Positions 1 to 6,136 of a stretch of DNA of 6,136 nt are shown in pieces (within the stretch, counting starts at the first letter, position 1; the number at the start of each line of letters is the position of its first letter). Where the stretch lies: IMG/VR virus record IMGVR_UViG_3300029073_000029. One strand, given 5' to 3'. This DNA comes from a virus (lineage: Duplodnaviria > Heunggongvirae > Uroviricota > Caudoviricetes). The translations under genes were made by a program, and so were the position numbers. The notes under the pieces were generated by a model. The model searched no databases, had not been told where the DNA came from, and saw only the letters and a list, made by a program, of their open reading frames with translations.

Positions 1-22
1 CGAAGGTGAGTTGATGGCTCAT
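1..22 (-). CDS. 5' end of a minus-strand ORF (MSHQLTF...) that runs off the left edge; sits where P4 beta follows gop
   Basis: ATG at 22..20 (plus-strand cat), AGAGG about 6 nt upstream, frame open to position 1. It starts 41 nt after the TGA of the 63..1082 gene. Only 7 codons are visible, so identity is unknown. Confidence 0.3.
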
Positions 23-62
23 GATGTCCCTCTGGGATGCGCTCCGGATGAATATGATGATC

Positions 63-1082
63 TCATATCAGGAACTTGTTCGCACCTTCCCTAGCAGAAC
101 GGACATCGACTGGTGTAAGGAAGAATTTATTCTTCCATTTTTGATTTTTAAATCTTGAGGATAGCCTTGCTATTAAAGATGACTTTCCATTTCCTGAACC
201 GCCTATAAGTGATAGGACTCTACTTTGAGAGCTATTTCCTCTAACATTCTCAAGATAATCCCAAACTTCTTTCTGTATATATTCGCGACCAACAAAGTCT
301 TTCGGCTGACATGGCTTATAATCCATAAAATCGTCAGCAAGAATTATTTCACTGACAATTTCCCTTTCGTAATTTTCAGATAATTTTGAAGACGAAACAG
401 TTTGTTCCGGTTCAGATAATATATAAAAATCAGTTACTTCCAACCCTTCAAAAAGCCCTTGCTCCTTTATAATATCACTTATGCGACTGACACTTGGAAT
501 TTTACTATTTTTATTTATAGCGAACGGCACCACTCTTATAGGGCTACCATTTTCAACTTCTTGCAAAAGCCAAGTCATTTCTATTTCAGGATGAACTAAA
601 AGTGTTGCACTAGTATATTTTGCCGGAATGTCATCTGTTGGAATATCCTCAACCTTACCTGTTGCAAGTATAGATATAAGAATCTCTTTTTTATCAAAAA
701 AAGAATAATCTATACGCTCATCAAGTCTATAATCCTCAAGCGTTGACTGAGCATCTTTACCCAAATCAGAAATTGAAAAAAGTGCAATTTTTTTAACTCT
801 CAACCTAAATGCTTGAGAAAATGCCAAATCAACCACAGATGAATCAACTTTTTGCTGCATGAATTTACATTCTACATACAGCTTTTCATTTGATGGTGTA
901 TGAGTAGCCTGAATATCAATTTCCATGCCAGATTTTCTGACTTCCATACCATCAATTCTATACGATTGCCGGCGGAGTATATCAGCGCAAAAATTCTCGA
1001 AAAACTTCCCTCTCGAGGTATTGGAATAATTACTAGGTACACAAACTATCAAATCTTTATTCAGTGGTAACGGCCTGGCCAT
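63..1082 (-). CDS. AT-rich cargo protein, 339 aa: N-terminal Mrr-like PD-(D/E)xK nuclease motif plus C-terminal start of an AAA_16/STAND-type P-loop NTPase that appears truncated
   Basis: Complete ORF with AAGGAG about 8 nt upstream of the ATG at 1082. Seen: GKFFENFCADILRRQSY...GMEIDIQA...KLYVECKF (hD...ExK pattern typical of Mrr_cat restriction-endonuclease domains) and FVGREYIQ...RVLSLIGGSGNGKSSLIARL (Walker A, at about 203..180) followed by only about 38 residues before TGA at 65..63. Clearly AT-rich by eye compared with flanking DNA. Position corresponds to gop in P4 (inference). Confidence 0.8.
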   Translation of the reverse strand: MARPLPLNKDLIVCVPSNYSNTSRGKFFENFCADILRRQSYRIDGMEVRKSGMEIDIQATHTPSNEKLYVECKFMQQKVDSSVVDLAFSQAFRLRVKKIALFSISDLGKDAQSTLEDYRLDERIDYSFFDKKEILISILATGKVEDIPTDDIPAKYTSATLLVHPEIEMTWLLQEVENGSPIRVVPFAINKNSKIPSVSRISDIIKEQGLFEGLEVTDFYILSEPEQTVSSSKLSENYEREIVSEIILADDFMDYKPCQPKDFVGREYIQKEVWDYLENVRGNSSQSRVLSLIGGSGNGKSSLIARLSSRFKNQKWKNKFFLTPVDVRSAREGANKFLI

Positions 1083-1097
1083 TTATACACTCCTTAT

Positions 1098-1127
1098 CTC
1101 ATATCCTTTTGACAAGTAAGATATCAA
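1098..1127 (-). promoter_or_regulatory. Candidate sigma70 promoter for the cargo gene
   Basis: On the minus strand, TTGATA (plus 1127..1122), an 18-nt spacer, then TATGAG (plus 1103..1098), just upstream of the AAGGAG RBS. Motif match only. Confidence 0.25.
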
Positions 1128-1202
1128 CCTCGAGTTTCAGAAACCAGTATCTTGCGCATATTTACGACATCAAAACTTTTGGTTATGCACCCACAGCGCG
1201 CA

Positions 1203-1221
1203 GTGCTTTCCCCGCCTCGCC
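1203..1221. other. cos: cos site: 19-nt P2/P4-type cohesive-end sequence
   Basis: Plus strand gtgctttccccgcctcgcc is the reverse complement of GGCGAGGCGGGGAAAGCAC, which I recall as the P2/P4 cohesive end. The following bases on the minus strand (TGCGCGCTG) also match my recollection of the P2 left end. It lies right after psu, as in P4. Confidence 0.7.
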
Positions 1222-1323
1222 CGCCCGCTTTGCGGGGCGGTTTTAATGCAGTTGCACTGACACGCTCAGACCGCGCCGGGAATGGTGCGGTCTGCAGAAA
1301 ATGAGGCAGGAAAACGCATGCAA

Positions 1324-1355
1324 AGCCATGCACCTTATCGATGCATGGCTTTTTT
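1324..1355. terminator. Perfect 9-bp hairpin with T-tract between psu and cos; possibly bidirectional
   Basis: AGCCATGCA (1324..1332), 9-nt loop, TGCATGGCT (1342..1350), then TTTTT (1351..1355) on the plus strand. On the minus strand the stem is preceded by A-run and followed by UUGCAUGCGUUUU, a weaker U-tract. Confidence 0.5.
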
Positions 1356-1385
1356 CAGTAAAAACGGGAGGATTTTCGGGGAATT

Positions 1386-1958
1386 TTACACAGACTGACG
1401 TGATGCCAGTTGCGCACTTTTACGCGAAAAAATCATGTTCTGCGCAGGGGTGAATTTTTCACGGCTGTCATCCACCGAAGCCGCGTCAGGCCTGAATCCG
1501 ATGGTCGTTAAAATGTCACTATCCTGTGCGGAATAATTAATTTTTTCCCCCTTCGCAAGCCAGGACAGAAGGGCTTCACGCAGGGCATCTGTGGCACGCT
1601 GTATGGCACAGTTTCGGGCAATGGCCGTCAGCTCACTGTAGCCCATCAGCTCCGGTGCCAGTGCCGCCGCCAGTGCTGTGCCGTGCTGCTGCATAAAATC
1701 ATTCAGCCGGTCGCGGATGCTGATGTGCTGAACGGCTTCATGCGAACGAATATAACGACCGGCGGCCTGATTCACCTGCCATTTTCTGACTTCGATAATA
1801 TTGCGTAATTCGTCCAGGCGACTGACGTTTCTGCCTTCTCCTGACTGAATCCGCAGATATTCCTGTTCGGCCGCAGCCAGCTCATTTTTGCGTTGCAGCC
1901 ATGCTGCTTTGTTATTCTGACAGGTGTCAAAGGCCTGCTGTAAGGCTGTGCTTTCCAT
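1386..1958 (-). CDS. psu: Psu-like protein (polarity suppression / capsid decoration), 190 aa
   Basis: Complete ORF of exactly 190 aa, the length I recall for P4 Psu. Third gene of a sid-delta-psu string, immediately upstream of cos as in P4. No distinctive motif was checked, so the call rests on size and synteny. Confidence 0.7.
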   Translation of the reverse strand: MESTALQQAFDTCQNNKAAWLQRKNELAAAEQEYLRIQSGEGRNVSRLDELRNIIEVRKWQVNQAAGRYIRSHEAVQHISIRDRLNDFMQQHGTALAAALAPELMGYSELTAIARNCAIQRATDALREALLSWLAKGEKINYSAQDSDILTTIGFRPDAASVDDSREKFTPAQNMIFSRKSAQLASRQSV

Positions 1959-2031
1959 CGTTATCTCTTTCTCATCATGCTGAAGAATAAAAATACGGTG
2001 TGCGGCGACGGCCGGTGTTAACCGGCAGCCC

Positions 2032-2532
2032 TCATTCCAGACGCAGCGAATATGATTGTGTTTTTAACCGTACTGGCGGCAGTTCCTGTTTTTCATGCAG
2101 GCTTTCTGCAAGCTCGTCCGGCGTGACCGGGCGGACAATGAAGCGGTTGATGGTCTGAAGCGTTTTAAACACCAGACCACAGCCCGGATCCGTGCACACA
2201 TAAAAACGCTCGGTGACTTCCTGAGACAGACGCCGCGATGTTCTTGACAGCGCAAGGCCTTTACATCTCCGACAACAATATCCGGTAACAAGCATTCTTT
2301 TCGGGCGCTTCATGCTGCCGGAGGCTGACGTCAGTGAATCGCGGTATCTCTGTTTGCCTGAAATGTATTCCATTCCTGAATCTTTACAGTCAGAGAAAAA
2401 GCTTTCACTCGCTTCAAATGTCGCAGAGCAATAAATATTCCGGCACTGTGCAATCATTATCTTGGTGCCATCGTCCATGAAATGTGCGCGACGGGTGTGA
2501 GCAACATGTCCACACGACGGGCAGTAAATCAT
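2032..2532 (-). CDS. delta: Delta late-gene transcriptional activator, 166 aa, with two Ogr-type zinc fingers
   Basis: Two copies of the C-X2-C-X22-C-X4-C finger characteristic of the Ogr/Delta family: CPSC...(22)...CRNIYC and CRRC...(22)...CTDPGC. Start ATG overlaps the sid stop as ATGA (plus strand 2529..2532 tcat). Length matches the 166 aa I recall for P4 Delta. Confidence 0.9.
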   Translation of the reverse strand: MIYCPSCGHVAHTRRAHFMDDGTKIMIAQCRNIYCSATFEASESFFSDCKDSGMEYISGKQRYRDSLTSASGSMKRPKRMLVTGYCCRRCKGLALSRTSRRLSQEVTERFYVCTDPGCGLVFKTLQTINRFIVRPVTPDELAESLHEKQELPPVRLKTQSYSLRLE

Positions 2533-3263
2533 GACAGCAGTCCTCTGGCCTTAAGCTTTGCTCCCTGCTGGTCTATTTTGTCCTGCCACACCTTGCGCTG
2601 TGCCGGTGTGCCTGCCACCTCATAATCCATGTGCGGGAGTGTTGCCGCTGACAGTCCGGTCAGCCGGAGAACCGGCTCGCCGGTGAGGCTGATTTGCATC
2701 TGTTTTATTTTCTGTTCCAGCGATGATTTCACCTGCTGCATGACAGCCTTTTCCGGTGCGACGTAGCCCTGATGGCCGGTGGTGTTGGCGAGCGGATTTT
2801 CCTGTACCAGGATGCTCAGATGCATTGCCCGGACAAGCGCCTCACAGGTTTCATTCAGGGCGTGTTCCAGCTCATGCTCTGCATACAGACTCAGCAGGTG
2901 ATGATGTGCCTTCCGGTAGGCGGTGGCCGTGCTGTCACACGCCCCTTTCAGGCGTTCGCGTTCAAAATTCAGCACCACGGCCAGATTGTCATATTCCTGT
3001 ACCAGCTCCCGGCGTGCCACGCGCTCAATGTGGCGCTGTTTCAGCTCGTCGCTCAGGACACCACCGGCTGCACGAAAGGCCGTGCGCCAGTCGTCAGCGT
3101 CGTTTCCGTCGGCCTGCGCCAGCGCATTTTTTTCCTGCTCTGCCCGTTCAATGGCCGTGACGGTCTCATCCATCAGGCGGGCGTTCTCAAGATGGGCGGC
3201 TCTGGCCTTTTCCAGTTGTGCCAGTGCGGGTTTCAGATATTCAGGGATAGTGTGGTCAGACAT
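2529..3263 (-). CDS. sid: Sid-like external scaffold / capsid size determination protein, 244 aa
   Basis: The ORF-track start at 3281 is a GTG. The ATG at 3263 has AGGAG about 7 nt upstream and gives 244 aa, the length I recall for P4 Sid. Helix-prone composition. First gene of the sid-delta-psu order, downstream of TGT-N12-ACA sites. Confidence 0.8.
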   Translation of the reverse strand: MSDHTIPEYLKPALAQLEKARAAHLENARLMDETVTAIERAEQEKNALAQADGNDADDWRTAFRAAGGVLSDELKQRHIERVARRELVQEYDNLAVVLNFERERLKGACDSTATAYRKAHHHLLSLYAEHELEHALNETCEALVRAMHLSILVQENPLANTTGHQGYVAPEKAVMQQVKSSLEQKIKQMQISLTGEPVLRLTGLSAATLPHMDYEVAGTPAQRKVWQDKIDQQGAKLKARGLLS

Positions 3264-3297
3264 TTTCCGGCTCCTCGTCACTTCAGGTTAAGAAAAT

Positions 3298-3353
3298 TGT
3301 GACGTACACCGGACAGCAACACGACGCATTGCAGATGTGCCAGCCCTGACACA
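3298..3353 (-). promoter_or_regulatory. Psid-like late promoter with two TGT-N12-ACA activator sites
   Basis: TGT(3298..3300)-N12-ACA(3313..3315) and TGT(3336..3338)-N12-ACA(3351..3353). The distal site is centred about 55 bp and the proximal about 17 bp upstream of a transcription start assumed near 3290. Ogr/Delta-activated P2/P4 late promoters have this element centred near -55. Confidence 0.5.
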
Positions 3354-3408
3354 GGAGACTCATCCTCACACCGGCAAGCCAGGAAAAGGTCGCAGGAAAA
3401 ACCGGCTT

Positions 3409-3577
3409 ACTGTTTGTTTTTTTATATTTTACTGTTCACCTCTGTTCACCTTAATAAAAAAGATAAGTAATACAGTAAGTTAAAGGATGAACAATCGCAG
3501 TAATGACTGTTCACCGTCTGTTCACCACTGTTCACCCGCTCATGGACTTTTTGTGCTGTTTACTACTGTTTGTTTTT
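3409..3577. other. ori: Putative replication origin with alpha-type iterons
   Basis: Five perfect direct TGTTCACC octamers at 3433..3440, 3443..3450, 3508..3515, 3519..3526 and 3529..3536, spaced about 10-11 bp, separated by an AT-rich spacer and bracketed by a 13-bp direct repeat ACTGTTTGTTTTT (3409..3421 and 3565..3577). I recall TGTTCACC as the type I iteron bound by P4 alpha at ori and crr. Confidence 0.6.
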
Positions 3578-3640
3578 ATTAATTCGCCGGGAATGAATAA
3601 GAAGAAACGATTTGTATTTCACTATAAAAATTACAAATTG

Positions 3641-3670
3641 CTTTAAGTGGCTTTAAATGACTTTAAGTGG
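3641..3670. repeat. Three tandem 10-bp repeats CTTTAA(G/A)TG(G/A)
   Basis: ctttaagtgg / ctttaaatga / ctttaagtgg, head to tail with helical-turn periodicity, about 150 bp upstream of vis. Function not determined; candidate regulator-binding array. Confidence 0.6.
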
Positions 3671-3695
3671 AAATGAACAAAAAACACACAACCAT

Positions 3696-3713
3696 TGTAA
3701 GGCTGCCGGAACA
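3696..3713 (+). promoter_or_regulatory. Candidate activator site of a PLL-like late promoter driving vis
   Basis: TGT(3696..3698)-N12-ACA(3711..3713), centred about 110 bp upstream of the vis ATG, which would place a transcription start near 3755..3760. Confidence 0.4.
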
Positions 3714-3815
3714 AATCCCCCCTGTTGCGTCTGCTGAAAATATTCACAAAATAAAGCGCTACCCGAAGCCGGACGGACTTATCCGGTGCTGTATGGACAT
3801 TAACGAGGTAGCCCG

Positions 3816-4082
3816 ATGCAAGCTGTTTTTTCTTCCCCGTCTCCCGCCCCTGTGACGCCACTGATGCCGCTGCCGGACATCACACAGGAGCGTTTTTTAC
3901 GTCTTCCGGAAGTGATGCACCTGTGCGGCCTGTCACGCTCGACCATCTATGAACTCATCCGTAAGGGGGAATTTCCGCCGCAGGTGAGTCTTGGCGGTAA
4001 AAATGTGGCCTGGCTGCACTCTGAAGTCACCGCATGGATGGCCGGCCGCATTGCCGGACGCAAACGGGGGTACGACGCATGA
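3816..4082 (+). CDS. vis: AlpA/Vis-family DNA-binding regulator (excisionase-like helix-turn-helix), 88 aa
   Basis: [51 protein letters not shown] matches the AlpA-family pattern (LP.V....G.SRST.Y.....G.FP....LG.....W...EV..W). GAGG lies 7 nt upstream of the ATG at 3816. An alternative in-frame ATG at 3864 would give 72 aa. Confidence 0.85.
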
Positions 4083-4117
4083 TGATGCCTGTTCTGCAAA
4101 AAGTCCCTTTTTCTGGC

Positions 4118-4147
4118 TTGCCTTTTTCCGGCATTTGCGGATATAGT
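4118..4147 (+). promoter_or_regulatory. Candidate sigma70 promoter (PLE-like) upstream of the immunity-like leader
   Basis: TTGCCT (4118..4123), 18-nt spacer, TATAGT (4142..4147). Motif match only. Confidence 0.35.
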
Positions 4148-4154
4148 TTTTCCG

Positions 4155-4471
4155 CTGCCGCAAAATCGGCAGCCGGGCGTGAGAACCCGTGTAACTCGAA
4201 GGCGACATATGACGCGCCATGCGTCTTTTTTTGTGTCGCAATCAACGCCACAGAGCGCCAGATTATGGTGTGGCGTGTGGTTTGCCGTGCAGGTATGATC
4301 CTGTTCGCAATCGCATGTTATGCCACTGAGTCAATGGTAGCTCAGGCGGGGCAGCCTCCGGGCTGGCCGGTATTCTTCGAGGCCGGTATTCTCACCCCCG
4401 TCTGGGCTATCGCCATCGAGCGTGAGAACTCCGGCGATAGCAGTTATTTGCTACTCGAAGGAGGCTGCCTT
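4155..4471 (+). ncRNA. Untranslated leader with repeated boxes and complementary segments; candidate cI-type immunity RNA region
   Basis: GCGTGAGAAC occurs twice (4177..4186, 4420..4429), each followed by ACTCGAAGG (4194..4202, 4453..4461; the second abuts the RBS of the 65-aa ORF). Between them, CTTCGAGG (4375..4382) and TTCTCAC (4389..4395) are complementary to those boxes, within a 12-nt direct repeat GGCCGGTATTCT (4365..4376, 4381..4392). No convincing ORF with RBS. Boundaries are approximate. Confidence 0.35.
4211..4232 (+). terminator. Short GC hairpin followed by T7; candidate intrinsic terminator within the leader
   Basis: GACGC (4211..4215), 5-nt loop, GCGTC (4221..4225), then TTTTTTT (4226..4232). 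Confidence 0.4.
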
Positions 4472-4669
4472 ATGGCTACAACCCTTACCCCCTCACACCC
4501 TGAATTTGTCTTTGTGTTTGCGGCTGTCCGTCGCGCAGACCGTCATCCCCGTATCTGCATGCTTCGCACCGTCGCCGGTGATGAACGCAGCGCCCGCCGT
4601 TCCCTTGTCCGTGACTATGTGCTCTCCCTTGCTGCCCGTCTGCCGGTGGTGGAGGTGTCCCGTGCGTAA
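4472..4669 (+). CDS. Small protein, 65 aa, first ORF after the leader (position comparable to P4 kil)
   Basis: GAAGGAGG ends about 7 nt before the ATG at 4472. It is the 3' part of the 211-aa track ORF, whose upstream portion lacks an RBS and overlaps vis and the leader. Confidence 0.55.
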
Positions 4670-4949
4670 TAAAAAAGCCCCTCAGACCGTCTCAGCACGT
4701 CATGACGCCCGTGAACACCTCAGCATTGAGGCTTACCATAAGCTCAACCGCGCCAGCGCCGTATCCCAGTTTGTTGGGGGTGATTTGATTCACCGTGAAC
4801 TCTCCGGCCTGCATCAGCTCTACATTCCGCATATTTTCAGCTACCTGAATGAAGATATTGATTTTGTGCTGAATGAGCTGAAAGCCAAAGGCCTGTGCCG
4901 CGATTTTCTCGCCCAGCAGAAAGACCGGGGAGACAGGACGCATGTTTGA
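4662..4949 (+). CDS. Small protein, 95 aa, GTG start (size compatible with P4 epsilon, not verified)
   Basis: GGAGG (4651..4655) sits 6 nt upstream of the GTG at 4662. It overlaps the stop of the 65-aa ORF by 8 nt and its own TGA (4947..4949) overlaps the next ATG. Confidence 0.6.
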
Positions 4950-5397
4950 TTTTCCCCAGCCCGGTGAGATTTACCGTTCTGCCGGTTTTCCCGATGTGGC
5001 CGTGGTCGGCATTCTGGAAGACGGTATTCCGTGGGAAATGCCGTACCGCTGCCCGGACATTGTCTGGAACCCGTACCGCCGTAAATTCAGTATCCTTGTG
5101 CGTATCCTCGATGACGGGCGCACCACAGACATCCCGCTGGGGCGTTTTCTGCGGGAATTTACCTGTGACCGTCCTGACCTGTTTAAACGCAGCCCCGTAA
5201 ACCGGCATGCGGTACTGAAAGAAATGGCCGGAGACCCGGAATTACAGAAATGGCGGGAGAAATATCTGGATATTTACCCGCAGGACACTGTTCCGGCCAG
5301 CCGGGCGGCACCGGTGGCGCGGGAATGGCGGGAAATTCCCCGCACGGAGCCTGACCCGGAAATCACCCCGGATAACAGTTACCGCAATTATCTGTAA
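4942..5397 (+). CDS. Hypothetical protein, 151 aa (same length as P4 orf151)
   Basis: Complete ORF, start overlaps the upstream stop (translational coupling), purine-rich stretch upstream. Length and position within the left operon match my recollection of P4 orf151. Confidence 0.75.
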   Translation: MFDFPQPGEIYRSAGFPDVAVVGILEDGIPWEMPYRCPDIVWNPYRRKFSILVRILDDGRTTDIPLGRFLREFTCDRPDLFKRSPVNRHAVLKEMAGDPELQKWREKYLDIYPQDTVPASRAAPVAREWREIPRTEPDPEITPDNSYRNYL

Positions 5398-5470
5398 TTA
5401 AAAAACGATACCCGAAAAATTAAATGTGCGTATTCGCGCAGGGATACGCACGTCTTCAGGAGACGCAGAT

Positions 5471-5536
5471 ATGCCTTATCAGTTAATGCAACCGGCACGG
5501 AATGCAGTCATCTGTCACAGGGAGGAAAACAAATGA
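5471..5536 (+). CDS. Possible 21-codon leader micro-ORF ([21 protein letters not shown]) coupled to the next gene
   Basis: AGGAGA (5458..5463) lies 7 nt upstream of the ATG at 5471. Its stop TGA (5534..5536) overlaps the ATG (5533..5535) of the 106-aa ORF as ATGA. Too short to judge by composition. Confidence 0.25.
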
Positions 5537-5853
5537 AAACACCCTTACCGCCCGTCTTACGCGCTGCCCTTTACCGTCGCGCTGTCGCCTGTGCCTGGCT
5601 GACCGTGTGCGAACGTCAGCACCGCTACCCGCATCTCACCCTTGAGTCACTGGAGGCGGCCATCGCCGCTGAGCTGGAAGGCTTTTATCTGCGCCAGCAC
5701 GGTGAGGAAAAAGGGCGTCAGATAGCCTGTGCCCTGCTGGAAGATTTAATGGAATCCGGCCCCCTGAAGGCCGCGCCGTCGCTGTCCTTTCTCGGGCTGG
5801 TTGTGATGGATGAACTCTGTGCCCGTCACATAAAAGCGCCGGTACTGCACTGA
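5533..5853 (+). CDS. Hypothetical protein, 106 aa, immediately upstream of the primase
   Basis: GGGAGG ends 8 nt before the ATG. Complete ORF ending 14 nt before the alpha start. Whether this or the 95-aa ORF is the epsilon (anti-repressor) equivalent cannot be decided from sequence alone. Confidence 0.75.
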
Positions 5854-5867
5854 AGGAGAACAACACC

Positions 5868-6136
5868 ATGAAAATGAACGTAACCGCCACCGTCAGCCAT
5901 GCGCTCGGCCACTGGCCGCGTATTCTCCCGGCGCTGGGGATTCAGGTGCTGAAGAACCGTCATCAGCCCTGTCCGGTCTGTGGCGGGAGTGACCGCTTCC
6001 GTTTTGATGACAGGGAGGGGCGTGGCACCTGGTACTGCAATCAGTGTGGTGCCGGTGACGGCCTGAAACTGGTTGAAAAGGTGTTTGGTGTTTCCCCGTC
6101 CGACGCGGCCGCAAAGGTGGCTGCCGTGACCGGCTG
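5868..6136 (+). CDS. alpha: Alpha-type primase/helicase replication protein, N-terminal part only (runs off the window)
   Basis: AAGGAG (5853..5858) lies 9 nt upstream of the ATG at 5868. Translation MKMNVTATVSHALGHWPRILPALGIQVLKNRHQPCPVCGGSDRFRFDDREGRGTWYCNQCGAGDGLKLVEKVFG carries a CxxC...CxxC zinc ribbon of the kind found at the N terminus of P4-type primases. No stop within the window. Confidence 0.85.
   Translation, partial: MKMNVTATVSHALGHWPRILPALGIQVLKNRHQPCPVCGGSDRFRFDDREGRGTWYCNQCGAGDGLKLVEKVFGVSPSDAAAKVAAVTG

What the first reader, a model, noticed from the sequence alone, without database searches (positions are those of the whole stretch)
63..1200. Compositional island bounded by cos on one side and a sharp shift on the other
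Seen by eye: roughly 63..1190 is strongly AT-rich (runs of AAA/TTT and AT-rich codons) while the late operon, immunity region and positions 1..62 are clearly more GC-rich. This is the signature of horizontally acquired cargo inserted into a conserved satellite backbone.
Basis: seen in the sequence. Interest (0 to 1): 0.45.

Follow-up and report, generated by a model that had tools for sequence, protein, structure and literature searches.

The report
IS5-cut defence cargo beside P4 cos
The AT-rich stretch is real: it is the swappable "cargo" slot that P4-type phage satellites keep next to their packaging site, here holding the front third of a nuclease-type immune-sensor gene that was cut in two by a jumping gene (IS5). 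This is an already described kind of locus, not a new one.

Summary
Observation confirmed. Window 91-1195 is 35.6% GC and 1196-6136 is 54.1% (changepoint near 1186; GC3 0.27 vs 0.50-0.65). The window is a P4-like satellite prophage, 97.8% identical to P4 from cos through psu-delta-sid, the immunity RNAs and the start of alpha.

The right edge of the island is the P2/P4 cos site: the 19-mer lies at 1203-1221, and homology between elements begins at 1196. The left "sharp shift" is not satellite backbone. Positions 1-90 are the end of an IS5-family element, with its CTAG target at 91-94.

The island holds codons 1-331 of a 913-aa Mrr-nuclease/nSTAND1-NTPase/winged-helix protein (WP_000113630.1). 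In intact relatives this gene fills the whole ~2.9-kb slot between int and cos. IS5 cuts it between Walker A and Walker B. The complementary junction was found in an independent metagenome contig.

The cargo occurs in 53 of 5,426 E. coli genomes and the cos-psu flank in about 1,050. Six other elements carry unrelated cargo at this slot, all 31-37% GC.

Rousset et al. 2022 described this hotspot and list this exact protein in it. Modest extras: the defence candidate is IS-inactivated (reported as rare in P4), and this Avs-like family appears untested.

The parts
1..90 (-). Terminal 90 nt of an IS5-family insertion sequence. The terminal inverted repeat CTTGTTCGCACCTTCC lies at 75-90. The transposase (InsH) start codon is at 22-20 on the minus strand and reads out of the window (MSHQLTF...).
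   Evidence: Window 1-96 is 99% identical to the element annotated 'transposase InsH, IS5D, IS5 family' in phage RCS47, where window 22 aligns with the insH start codon. E. coli loci with the intact gene match only from window 91 onward.
91..94 (.). CTAG, the 4-bp IS5 target site, duplicated on the other side of the IS.
   Evidence: Window...CACCTTCC|CTAG. Independent contig OAUD01000029.1 (L013)...CTAG|GGAAGGTGCGAATAAG. L013 is 100% identical to the intact locus up to and including the CTAG.
63..1082 (-). Truncated cargo ORF of 339 aa. Codons 1-331 (window 1082-91) are the N-terminus of the 913-aa Mrr_cat + nSTAND1 protein WP_000113630.1. The last 8 codons and the stop (window 90-63) are read from the IS. 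It keeps the PD-(D/E)xK nuclease domain (D56, E71, K73) and Walker A (G297-S302). It lacks Walker B (D392-E396), the rest of the NTPase and the whole winged-helix C-terminal half.
   Evidence: Pfam gives Mrr_cat at 24-117 (E=3.8e-08) and only the first ~50 positions of nSTAND1/AAA_16. It is identical to the intact protein through residue 331 and diverges from 332. Invariant residues come from a 43-sequence alignment.
1083..1195 (-). Cargo-specific 5' leader and presumed promoter region of the cargo gene (39% GC). A Shine-Dalgarno AAGGAG (plus strand CTCCTT, 1090-1095) lies 7 nt before the ATG.
   Evidence: Read directly from the sequence. This stretch belongs to the variable region: it is absent from other P4-likes, whose homology starts at 1196. 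No consensus sigma-70 promoter was found here, so the promoter assignment is inferred.
1196..1221 (.). Start of the conserved backbone: the GCGCGCA motif (1196-1202) followed by the P2/P4 19-nt cohesive end (1203-1221, reverse complement of GGCGAGGCGGGGAAAGCAC).
   Evidence: Exact match at 1203. The P4 record ends at window 1222. P2-like phages match 1188-1268. The aligned junctions of 8 elements show shared sequence only from the GCGCGCA motif.
1221..1240 (+). Conserved G+C-rich hairpin followed by a T-run, immediately right of the cos end. It looks like a terminator on the + strand.
   Evidence: It is conserved in all P4-like loci sampled. Its function was not tested.
1386..3263 (-). Conserved P4 late operon that forms the GC-rich right flank: psu 1386-1958, delta 2032-2532, sid 2529-3263.
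   Evidence: Pfam: Psu 1.1e-87, Ogr_Delta 6.8e-22. 97.8% identical to P4. RefSeq annotation of the 99.98%-identical locus L001.

Best explanation
The low-GC island is the occupied accessory ('defence hotspot') slot of a P4-like satellite prophage. This slot is the variable segment that P4-type elements keep between the 3' end of int and the cos site.

In this lineage the slot holds one self-contained gene for a 913-aa protein with three parts: an N-terminal Mrr-type PD-(D/E)xK nuclease, a central STAND (nSTAND1) P-loop NTPase, and a C-terminal array of winged-helix domains. By analogy with nuclease-STAND (Avs) immune sensors, the intact protein most likely stays monomeric and inactive until its C-terminal sensor binds a phage-derived ligand. 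It would then oligomerise in an NTP-dependent way, bringing the nuclease domains together so that they cut DNA and abort the infection. That would protect the host, and with it the resident satellite. This mechanism is inferred and has not been shown.

In this window an IS5-family element has inserted at a CTAG inside codon 331-332, between Walker A and Walker B. The window shows only the promoter-proximal 1.1 kb of the ~2.9-kb cargo. The predicted product is a 339-aa nuclease-plus-Walker-A stub with no oligomerisation or sensor modules, so it is most likely non-functional.

The right GC step is the cargo/backbone recombination boundary, 7 nt from the cos cohesive end. The left GC step is the IS5 terminus.
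For: Shown:
- GC island and changepoint.
- P4 backbone identity and cos position.
- Immunity RNAs C4, isrK and c4-a1b1 at 4141-4417.
- Window 91-6136 is 99.98% identical to intact prophages at ssrA, in which a single 913-aa gene fills int-to-cos.
- IS5 end, transposase start and CTAG target, with the complementary junction in an independent 68.7-kb contig.
- The same truncated ORF occurs in 8 gut-metagenome contigs.
- Cargo in 53 genomes versus the flank in about 1,050 of 5,426.
- Unrelated cargo at the same slot in five other E. coli elements and P4 itself, all 31-37% GC against a backbone of ~54% (48% in one degraded element).
- Variable region delimited at L001 ~7210-10105.
- Rousset et al. 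[quoted passage not shown]

Supporting the inferred mechanism:
- Pfam Mrr_cat plus nSTAND1 above their gathering scores.
- Nuclease and Walker A/B residues invariant across 43 homologues down to 29% identity.
- AlphaFold model with mean pLDDT 82 and about four C-terminal wHTH units.
- The best PDB fold match is EcAvs4 bound to a phage portal, 8dgf, E=2e-10.
- Ligand-driven tetramerisation that activates a PD-(D/E)xK nuclease is documented for Avs proteins (PMC13581612).
Against: - I found no experimental evidence that this protein defends against phage. It is absent from what appears to be Rousset's table of tested systems, and no searchable paper names it.
- No PADLOC 2.0.0, NCBIfam or PHROGs model recognises it beyond the P-loop.
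- The C-terminal region is a winged-helix array, not the TPR-like sensor of characterised Avs proteins. The ligand could be nucleic acid, or the role could differ.
- The overall TM-score to Avs4 is low (0.20), as expected for a flexible multi-domain model, so the match mainly reflects the nuclease and NTPase modules.
- The two IS junctions come from different contigs, possibly different samples. No single read-through assembly of the interrupted locus was seen, and it is absent from complete E. coli genomes and GTDB representatives.
Confidence: 0.88

Rival explanations
1. The low-GC stretch is an intrinsic, conserved functional region of the P4 backbone (for example an AT-rich origin or regulatory region, or a diverged version of P4's own gop-beta-cII genes) rather than exchangeable cargo.
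For: P4-type backbones do contain conserved AT-rich DNA. Window 3400-3750 is 35% GC and is the P4 ori region. P4's own gop-beta-cII segment has the same GC, 35.9%.
Against: Similarity to P4 stops at cos, and nothing in window 1-1221 matches the rest of the P4 record. The stretch is one long coding ORF with Mrr_cat and STAND domains. It is present in only 53 genomes, against about 1,050 with the flank. Other elements share no sequence to the left of window 1196.
Confidence: 0.02
2. The left boundary (IS5 joined to the gene) is an assembly artefact: a metagenome contig wrongly extended into a repeat. On this reading the gene is intact in the real genome.
For: All contigs that carry the truncated ORF stop 113-121 nt into the IS, as assemblers do at repeats. 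No complete genome in the E. coli set or the GTDB representatives holds the junction.
Against: The same junction occurs in at least 8 contigs, including three assemblies built with two different k-mer settings. The join falls exactly at the IS terminal inverted repeat and at a CTAG. From my own knowledge, IS5 prefers YTAR targets. The reciprocal junction, with the same CTAG and the opposite inverted repeat, exists in an independent 68.7-kb contig that is 100% identical to the intact locus up to that point. A chimera would not produce a perfect 4-bp target duplication.
Confidence: 0.04
3. The truncated 339-aa product is not a dead remnant. It would be a functional stand-alone Mrr-type nuclease, for example a constitutive or differently regulated restriction activity, kept because it is useful.
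For: The ORF keeps a good Shine-Dalgarno, its native upstream region, the complete nuclease domain with all catalytic residues, and a clean stop 28 nt into the IS. The allele persists in several gut samples.
Against: In characterised nuclease-STAND proteins, nuclease activity needs NTPase-driven tetramerisation (PMC13581612). The 120 best homologues listed include only a few shorter hits (505-771 aa), and the shortest carries no recorded Pfam domains, so none is a nuclease-plus-Walker-A stub of ~340 aa. The window differs from the intact allele by one base in 6,046, which indicates a very recent event with no time for selection to act.
Confidence: 0.05
4. The 913-aa gene is cargo but not an immune sensor. 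It could be a DNA-binding regulator or partition-type ATPase with a nuclease domain that serves the satellite's own life cycle.
For: The C-terminal half is made of winged-helix DNA-binding-type domains, with weak profile hits to wHTH regulators and Csa3. The best structural matches after Avs4 are Orc1/Cdc6, RuvB and RFC. No defence HMM hits.
Against: The gene is not needed by P4-likes, since most lack it. It sits in the slot where many tested cargos were found to be anti-phage systems (PMC9122126). Homologues occur as solitary genes in a prophage next to Dar-type anti-restriction genes, and beside IS66 and a HEPN-Toprim gene. A nuclease effector fused to a STAND NTPase is the Avs architecture.
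Confidence: 0.1

Closest known systems
P4-like satellite defence hotspot between int and cos/psu (Rousset et al. 2022, Cell Host Microbe, PMC9122126; extended in NAR 2026, PMC13586616)
   Same: Same element type, same slot directly adjacent to cos, and the same pattern of a conserved backbone with swapped cargo. The exact protein WP_000113630 is listed as an occupant of the hotspot in their supplementary table.
   Different: Here the cargo gene is interrupted by an IS5-family element. The 2026 study reports that under 1% of P4 pseudogenes resemble defence genes, and that transposable elements are thought to be infrequent in phage and satellite genomes.
P4 gop-beta-cII region (the reference occupant of the same slot)
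   Same: Same position between cos and int, similar size (2.6 kb against 2.9 kb) and the same low GC (35.9% against 35.4%).
   Different: No sequence or domain similarity. P4 carries three genes and this element carries one Mrr-STAND gene.
Avs4 / antiviral STAND proteins with nuclease effectors (EcAvs4, PDB 8dgf; SeAvs3 and SeAvs7)
   Same: An N-terminal PD-(D/E)xK (Mrr-type) nuclease followed by a STAND NTPase with invariant Walker A and B motifs, in a single-gene system. EcAvs4 is the best PDB fold match.
   Different: About 900 aa instead of ~1,500. The C-terminal part is an array of about four winged-helix domains instead of a TPR-like sensor. No PADLOC model of any kind, Avs included, matches beyond a weak P-loop hit. 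The NTPase falls in Pfam nSTAND1. No trigger or anti-phage activity is known.
IS5 insertional inactivation
   Same: A terminal inverted repeat GGAAGGTGCGAA(C/T)AAG on both sides, a 4-bp CTAG target duplication, and an InsH-type transposase start.
   Different: Nothing unusual. Only 90 nt of the IS are in the window, and the element was not seen in full at this site.

Membership tests
P4-like phage satellite | Core genes psu, delta, sid, alpA/vis, epsilon region and alpha primase, in P4 order | tested here: met
   Pfam Psu, Ogr_Delta, Phage_AlpA and DUF5375. 97.8% nucleotide identity to P4 6703-11624. The 99.98%-identical locus L001 is annotated with sid, Icd-like, derepression protein and primase.
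P4-like phage satellite | P2/P4 cos site with the 19-nt cohesive end | tested here: met
   Exact 19-mer at 1203-1221. P2-like phages match 1188-1268.
P4-like phage satellite | Immunity region with CI (C4-type) RNA | tested here: met
   Rfam C4 at 4330-4417 (74 bits), c4-a1b1 at 4141-4193, isrK at 4154-4231.
P4-like phage satellite | Tyrosine integrase and integration at a tRNA or tmRNA gene | tested here: met
   Not inside the window. In the intact relatives (L001, L002), int lies next to ssrA. The contig with the other IS junction, L013, is 100% identical to L001 5825-9004, which spans int.
P4 hotspot cargo (Rousset 2022) | Located between int and cos/psu, directly adjacent to cos | tested here: met
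   The cargo ends 7 nt from the cos 19-mer. In intact loci it starts within about 20-80 nt of the int stop.
P4 hotspot cargo (Rousset 2022) | Content varies between otherwise similar elements | tested here: met
   53 genomes against about 1,050. Type II R-M, RT systems, HEPN+DUF262, SIR2+ATPase and gop-beta-cII occupy the same slot in other elements.
P4 hotspot cargo (Rousset 2022) | Anti-phage activity of the cargo | not testable with these tools
   No experimental record was found for WP_000113630.
Avs (antiviral STAND) proteins | STAND NTPase with conserved Walker A and B | tested here: met
   Pfam nSTAND1 at 32.0 bits against a cutoff of 27.1. G297, G299, K300, S301, S302 and D392-E396 are invariant in 43 homologues. 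This holds for the intact protein. The window copy stops before Walker B.
Avs (antiviral STAND) proteins | N-terminal effector domain, here a PD-(D/E)xK nuclease | tested here: met
   Mrr_cat E=1.4e-07. D56, E71 and K73 invariant.
Avs (antiviral STAND) proteins | C-terminal TPR-like repeat sensor that envelops a phage protein | tested here: not met
   The model shows about four H-H-H-beta-beta winged-helix units at ~540-835 plus a helical tail, and no TPR solenoid. Weak profile hits are to wHTH regulators and Csa3.
Avs (antiviral STAND) proteins | Recognised by existing defence-system sequence models (PADLOC-DB 2.0.0) | tested here: not met
   The only hit is a weak P-loop match to DndF, E=4e-4. 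Assignment to one of the ~90 structural families of PMC13581612 could not be tested, because its supplement is not held.
IS5 family insertion sequence | Terminal inverted repeats GGAAGGTGCGAA..., a 4-bp YTAR target duplication, and an InsH DDE transposase | tested here: met
   Inverted repeat at 75-90, CTAG on both sides, opposite repeat in L013, transposase start aligned to the annotated insH. The YTAR target preference is from my own knowledge. The full IS at this site was not seen.

The most novel reading that the evidence does not exclude
Two things remain that the evidence does not exclude as new.

1. The Mrr-nSTAND1 proteins of ~900 aa may be a compact, uncharacterised Avs-like family. 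Their sensor is an array of winged-helix domains, so they might recognise a nucleic-acid feature of the invader rather than a folded phage protein, unlike characterised Avs proteins.

2. The IS5-split allele may be a caught-in-the-act example of defence loss by inactivation at a P4 hotspot. The 2026 survey argues that this route is nearly absent in favour of direct swapping.
Probability: 0.2. Interest if true: 0.5.

Novelty: already known. Interest (0 to 1): 0.15.

Why it matters
This is a clean, fully resolved example of the P4 satellite defence hotspot. The cargo/backbone boundary maps to within a few bases of cos, and cargo composition (31-37% GC) is strikingly uniform whatever the gene content. 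That is useful as a positive control for a genome scan, but it does not change what is known.

Two small points may interest specialists. First, a candidate immune gene in this hotspot has been knocked out by IS5, whereas a recent large survey found defence pseudogenes very rare in P4-like elements. Second, the intact 913-aa Mrr-STAND-winged-helix protein is widespread (Enterobacterales, Vibrionaceae, Acinetobacter, many metagenomes) yet appears untested and is invisible to PADLOC models. That makes it a reasonable candidate for experimental characterisation.

Tried and rejected
Searches that gave nothing useful:
- PADLOC, NCBIfam and PHROGs scans of the truncated and full-length protein returned only weak P-loop hits.
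- PDB sequence searches, with the single sequence and with the profile, gave no significant relative.
- An exact-match scan of GTDB representative genomes for the window's IS junction found nothing. A scan of IMG/VR for the reciprocal junction also found nothing.
- No complete E. coli genome covers window 1-1300 in one piece.
- The promoter scan found no consensus sigma-70 site in 1083-1195, so the cargo promoter remains unlocated.
- The repeat search in 1-1400 found no direct repeats flanking the cargo, hence no att-like or integron-like boundaries.
- A literature search for the accession found no paper. The five nSTAND1 papers contain nothing experimental on this family.
- The supplement of the 2026 Nature Avs classification is not held, so I could not assign a family number.

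Ideas rejected:
- cos at positions 1-62. It is at 1203-1221.
- The island as diverged gop/beta/cII.
- The island as an AT-rich backbone regulatory region.
- The IS junction as an assembly chimera.

Full report
**1. The observation**

The sliding GC profile shows 32-40% GC in every 200-nt window between 101 and 1200, jumping to 52-55% immediately afterwards. Segment values are 35.6% for 91-1194, 54.1% for 1195-6136 and 51.6% for 1-62. The best single changepoint in the first 3.3 kb is at 1186, with a log-likelihood gain of 47.9 nats. No 1128-nt window elsewhere in the sequence drops below 48.4%. Third-codon-position GC of the island ORF is 0.265, against 0.50-0.65 for the backbone genes. The island is real and well beyond chance.

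One caution: a second 35% GC stretch at 3400-3750 is conserved P4 backbone. It corresponds to about P4 9096-9446, inside the annotated replication origin with its type 1 and type 2 repeats. Low GC alone therefore does not identify cargo.

**2. What the window is**

- Window 1222-6134 is 97.8% identical to phage P4 positions 11624-6703.
- The ORFs are psu (1386-1958, minus strand), delta (2032-2532, minus), sid (2529-3263, minus), alpA/vis (3816-4082, plus), orf151 (4942-5397) and orf106/DUF5375 (5533-5853), as shown.
- Rfam finds the P4 immunity RNAs: c4-a1b1 at 4141-4193, isrK at 4154-4231 and C4 at 4330-4417.
- The 19-nt P2/P4 cohesive end, as the reverse complement of GGCGAGGCGGGGAAAGCAC, lies at 1203-1221. 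The linear P4 record ends exactly at window 1222.

cos therefore sits at the right edge of the island, where the sharp GC step occurs.

**3. The left edge is an insertion sequence**

Window 1-96 is 99% identical to an element annotated 'InsH, IS5D, IS5 family'. The terminal inverted repeat CTTGTTCGCACCTTCC occupies 75-90. The transposase start codon is at 22-20 on the minus strand.

E. coli chromosomes that carry the island match only from window 91 onward. Window 91-6136 differs from strain EC1722-1 (locus L001 9001-15046) by one base in 6,046.

The reciprocal junction was found by exact-pattern search in metagenome contig OAUD01000029.1. It consists of the remainder of the gene, then CTAG, then GGAAGGTGCGAATAAG. 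That contig is 100% identical to L001 5825-9004, which covers int and the 3' part of the gene. Together the two junctions show a simple IS5 insertion with a 4-bp CTAG target duplication and no deletion.

The truncated ORF occurs in 8 human-gut metagenome contigs, all of which end 113-121 nt inside the IS. The junction is absent from complete E. coli genomes and from GTDB representatives. The window is therefore most likely a metagenome contig that broke at the repeat.

**4. The cargo**

In intact relatives the P4-like prophage lies at ssrA. The whole space between the int stop and cos is occupied by one minus-strand gene, WP_000113630.1. It is 913 aa, 35.4% GC, and uniformly low in GC along its length.

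- Pfam finds Mrr_cat (residues 24-117) and nSTAND1/AAA_16 (from about 255).
- In a 43-sequence alignment that reaches 29% identity, the PD-(D/E)xK residues D56, E71 and K73, Walker A G297-S302 and Walker B D392-E396 are invariant.
- An AlphaFold2 model (mean pLDDT 82.3) shows the nuclease, an intermediate beta-rich module, the NTPase, and a C-terminal half built from about four winged-helix units plus a helical tail.
- Its best match among solved structures is EcAvs4 bound to a phage portal (8dgf, E=2e-10). The next matches are STAND-like and AAA+/wHTH ATPases such as PAB2304, Orc1/Cdc6 and RuvB.
- No PADLOC, NCBIfam or PHROGs model recognises it beyond the P-loop. It has no sequence relative in the PDB.

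The window copy encodes residues 1-331, then 8 residues and a stop read from the IS. It keeps the nuclease domain and Walker A but loses Walker B, the rest of the NTPase and the entire C-terminal half.

**5. Is it exchangeable cargo in a conserved backbone?**

- The island sequence (95-1185) is present in 53 of 5,426 complete E. coli genomes, always once, chromosomal and at least 99% identical.
- The adjacent cos-psu segment (1186-1960) is covered to at least 80% in about 1,050 genomes, with homology beginning at window 1195-1198.
- Five other P4-like elements carry different cargo at the same slot: a type II restriction-modification system, reverse-transcriptase systems, HEPN+DUF262, or SIR2+ATPase. 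P4 itself carries gop-beta-cII there.
- When the junctions are aligned, all eight sequences share the cos 19-mer and the preceding GCGCGCA, and nothing to the left of it.
- On the int side, homology to other ssrA-type elements ends within the last ~20-80 nt of int.
- All seven cargos are 31-37% GC. Backbones are ~54%, or 48% in one degraded element.
- Homologues of the cargo gene are solitary genes in unrelated settings: between metabolic genes in Serratia (36% GC within 60% GC DNA), inside an Acinetobacter prophage near DarA/DdrB, and beside IS66 and a HEPN-Toprim gene in Photobacterium.

**6. How it most likely works**

Shown: the architecture, the conservation of catalytic residues, the hotspot location and the IS disruption.

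Inferred from characterised nuclease-STAND proteins (Avs3, Avs4, Avs7; PMC13581612): the intact protein is an autoinhibited monomer, ligand binding by the C-terminal sensor permits NTP-dependent oligomerisation, and this assembles an active PD-(D/E)xK nuclease that degrades DNA and aborts infection. The winged-helix sensor departs from the TPR-like sensors of characterised Avs proteins and leaves the ligand open. Without the NTPase core and the sensor, the 339-aa stub is expected to be inactive.

From my own knowledge, IS5 prefers YTAR targets and AT-rich, destabilised DNA. That would make an AT-rich island a natural target, but this is a comment and was not tested.

**7. Comparison with what is known, and novelty**

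Rousset et al. 2022 described this hotspot. They emphasised that it is directly adjacent to cos, and they noted hotspot STAND proteins with Mrr_cat effectors. They list WP_000113630 fifteen times in a supplementary table. It does not appear in what seems to be their table of tested systems, and no searchable paper mentions the accession.

The 2026 NAR survey reports that fewer than 1% of pseudogenes in P4-like elements resemble defence genes, and it argues for swapping without prior inactivation. An IS5-split defence candidate is thus an uncommon state, but it is mechanistically ordinary.

Verdict: a real feature, correctly interpreted in outline, and already known in kind and in this specific instance. 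The new details are the IS5 truncation and the precise boundaries.

Noticed in passing
window 3400-3750: A second low-GC stretch (35%) that is not cargo. It is about 98% identical to P4 and corresponds to the annotated P4 replication origin with its type 1 and type 2 repeats. It serves as a control showing that low GC alone does not mark acquired DNA.
   Followed up: partly
window 1221-1240 (+): A G+C-rich hairpin CCGCCCGCTTTGCGGGGCGG followed by TTTTAATG, immediately right of the cos cohesive end and conserved in all P4-like loci sampled. On the + strand it looks like an intrinsic terminator. It could stop transcription that leaves the hotspot from running antisense into psu.
   Followed up: no
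window 1124-1333 (-): RefSeq annotates a 69-aa 'hypothetical protein' (WP_071590453.1) here in the intact relatives. The ORF runs straight across the cos site and the cargo/backbone boundary, so it is probably a spurious gene call.
   Followed up: no
window 4141-4417 (+): Rfam finds the P4 immunity RNAs above their gathering scores: c4-a1b1 targets (4141-4193), isrK (4154-4231) and C4/CI antisense RNA (4330-4417). They lie inside what RefSeq annotates as an 'Icd-like protein' CDS (window 4079-4669).
   Followed up: no
L001 2360-5698 (E. coli EC1722-1): In this strain the P4-like element is preceded by a second integrase with an AAA-family ATPase plus an RloB-family protein (an AbiL-like pair). 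This suggests a tandem array of islands on the int side of the P4-like element; in strain STEC346 (L002) ssrA lies directly beside int.
   Followed up: no
L007 2086-4531 and 7838-8092 (E. coli strain 571): Another P4-like element has an IS3 inserted in its integrase and a truncated delta gene, yet keeps an intact RT-type cargo next to a degenerate cos (4 mismatches in the 19-mer). IS hits and decay do occur in P4-like elements.
   Followed up: no
L016/L017 7001-9700 (Acinetobacter): A 48%-identical homologue of the cargo gene sits inside a prophage between DarA_N/ddrB-ParB-type genes and a tail-tip gene, so the same single-gene module also travels as a prophage moron.
   Followed up: partly
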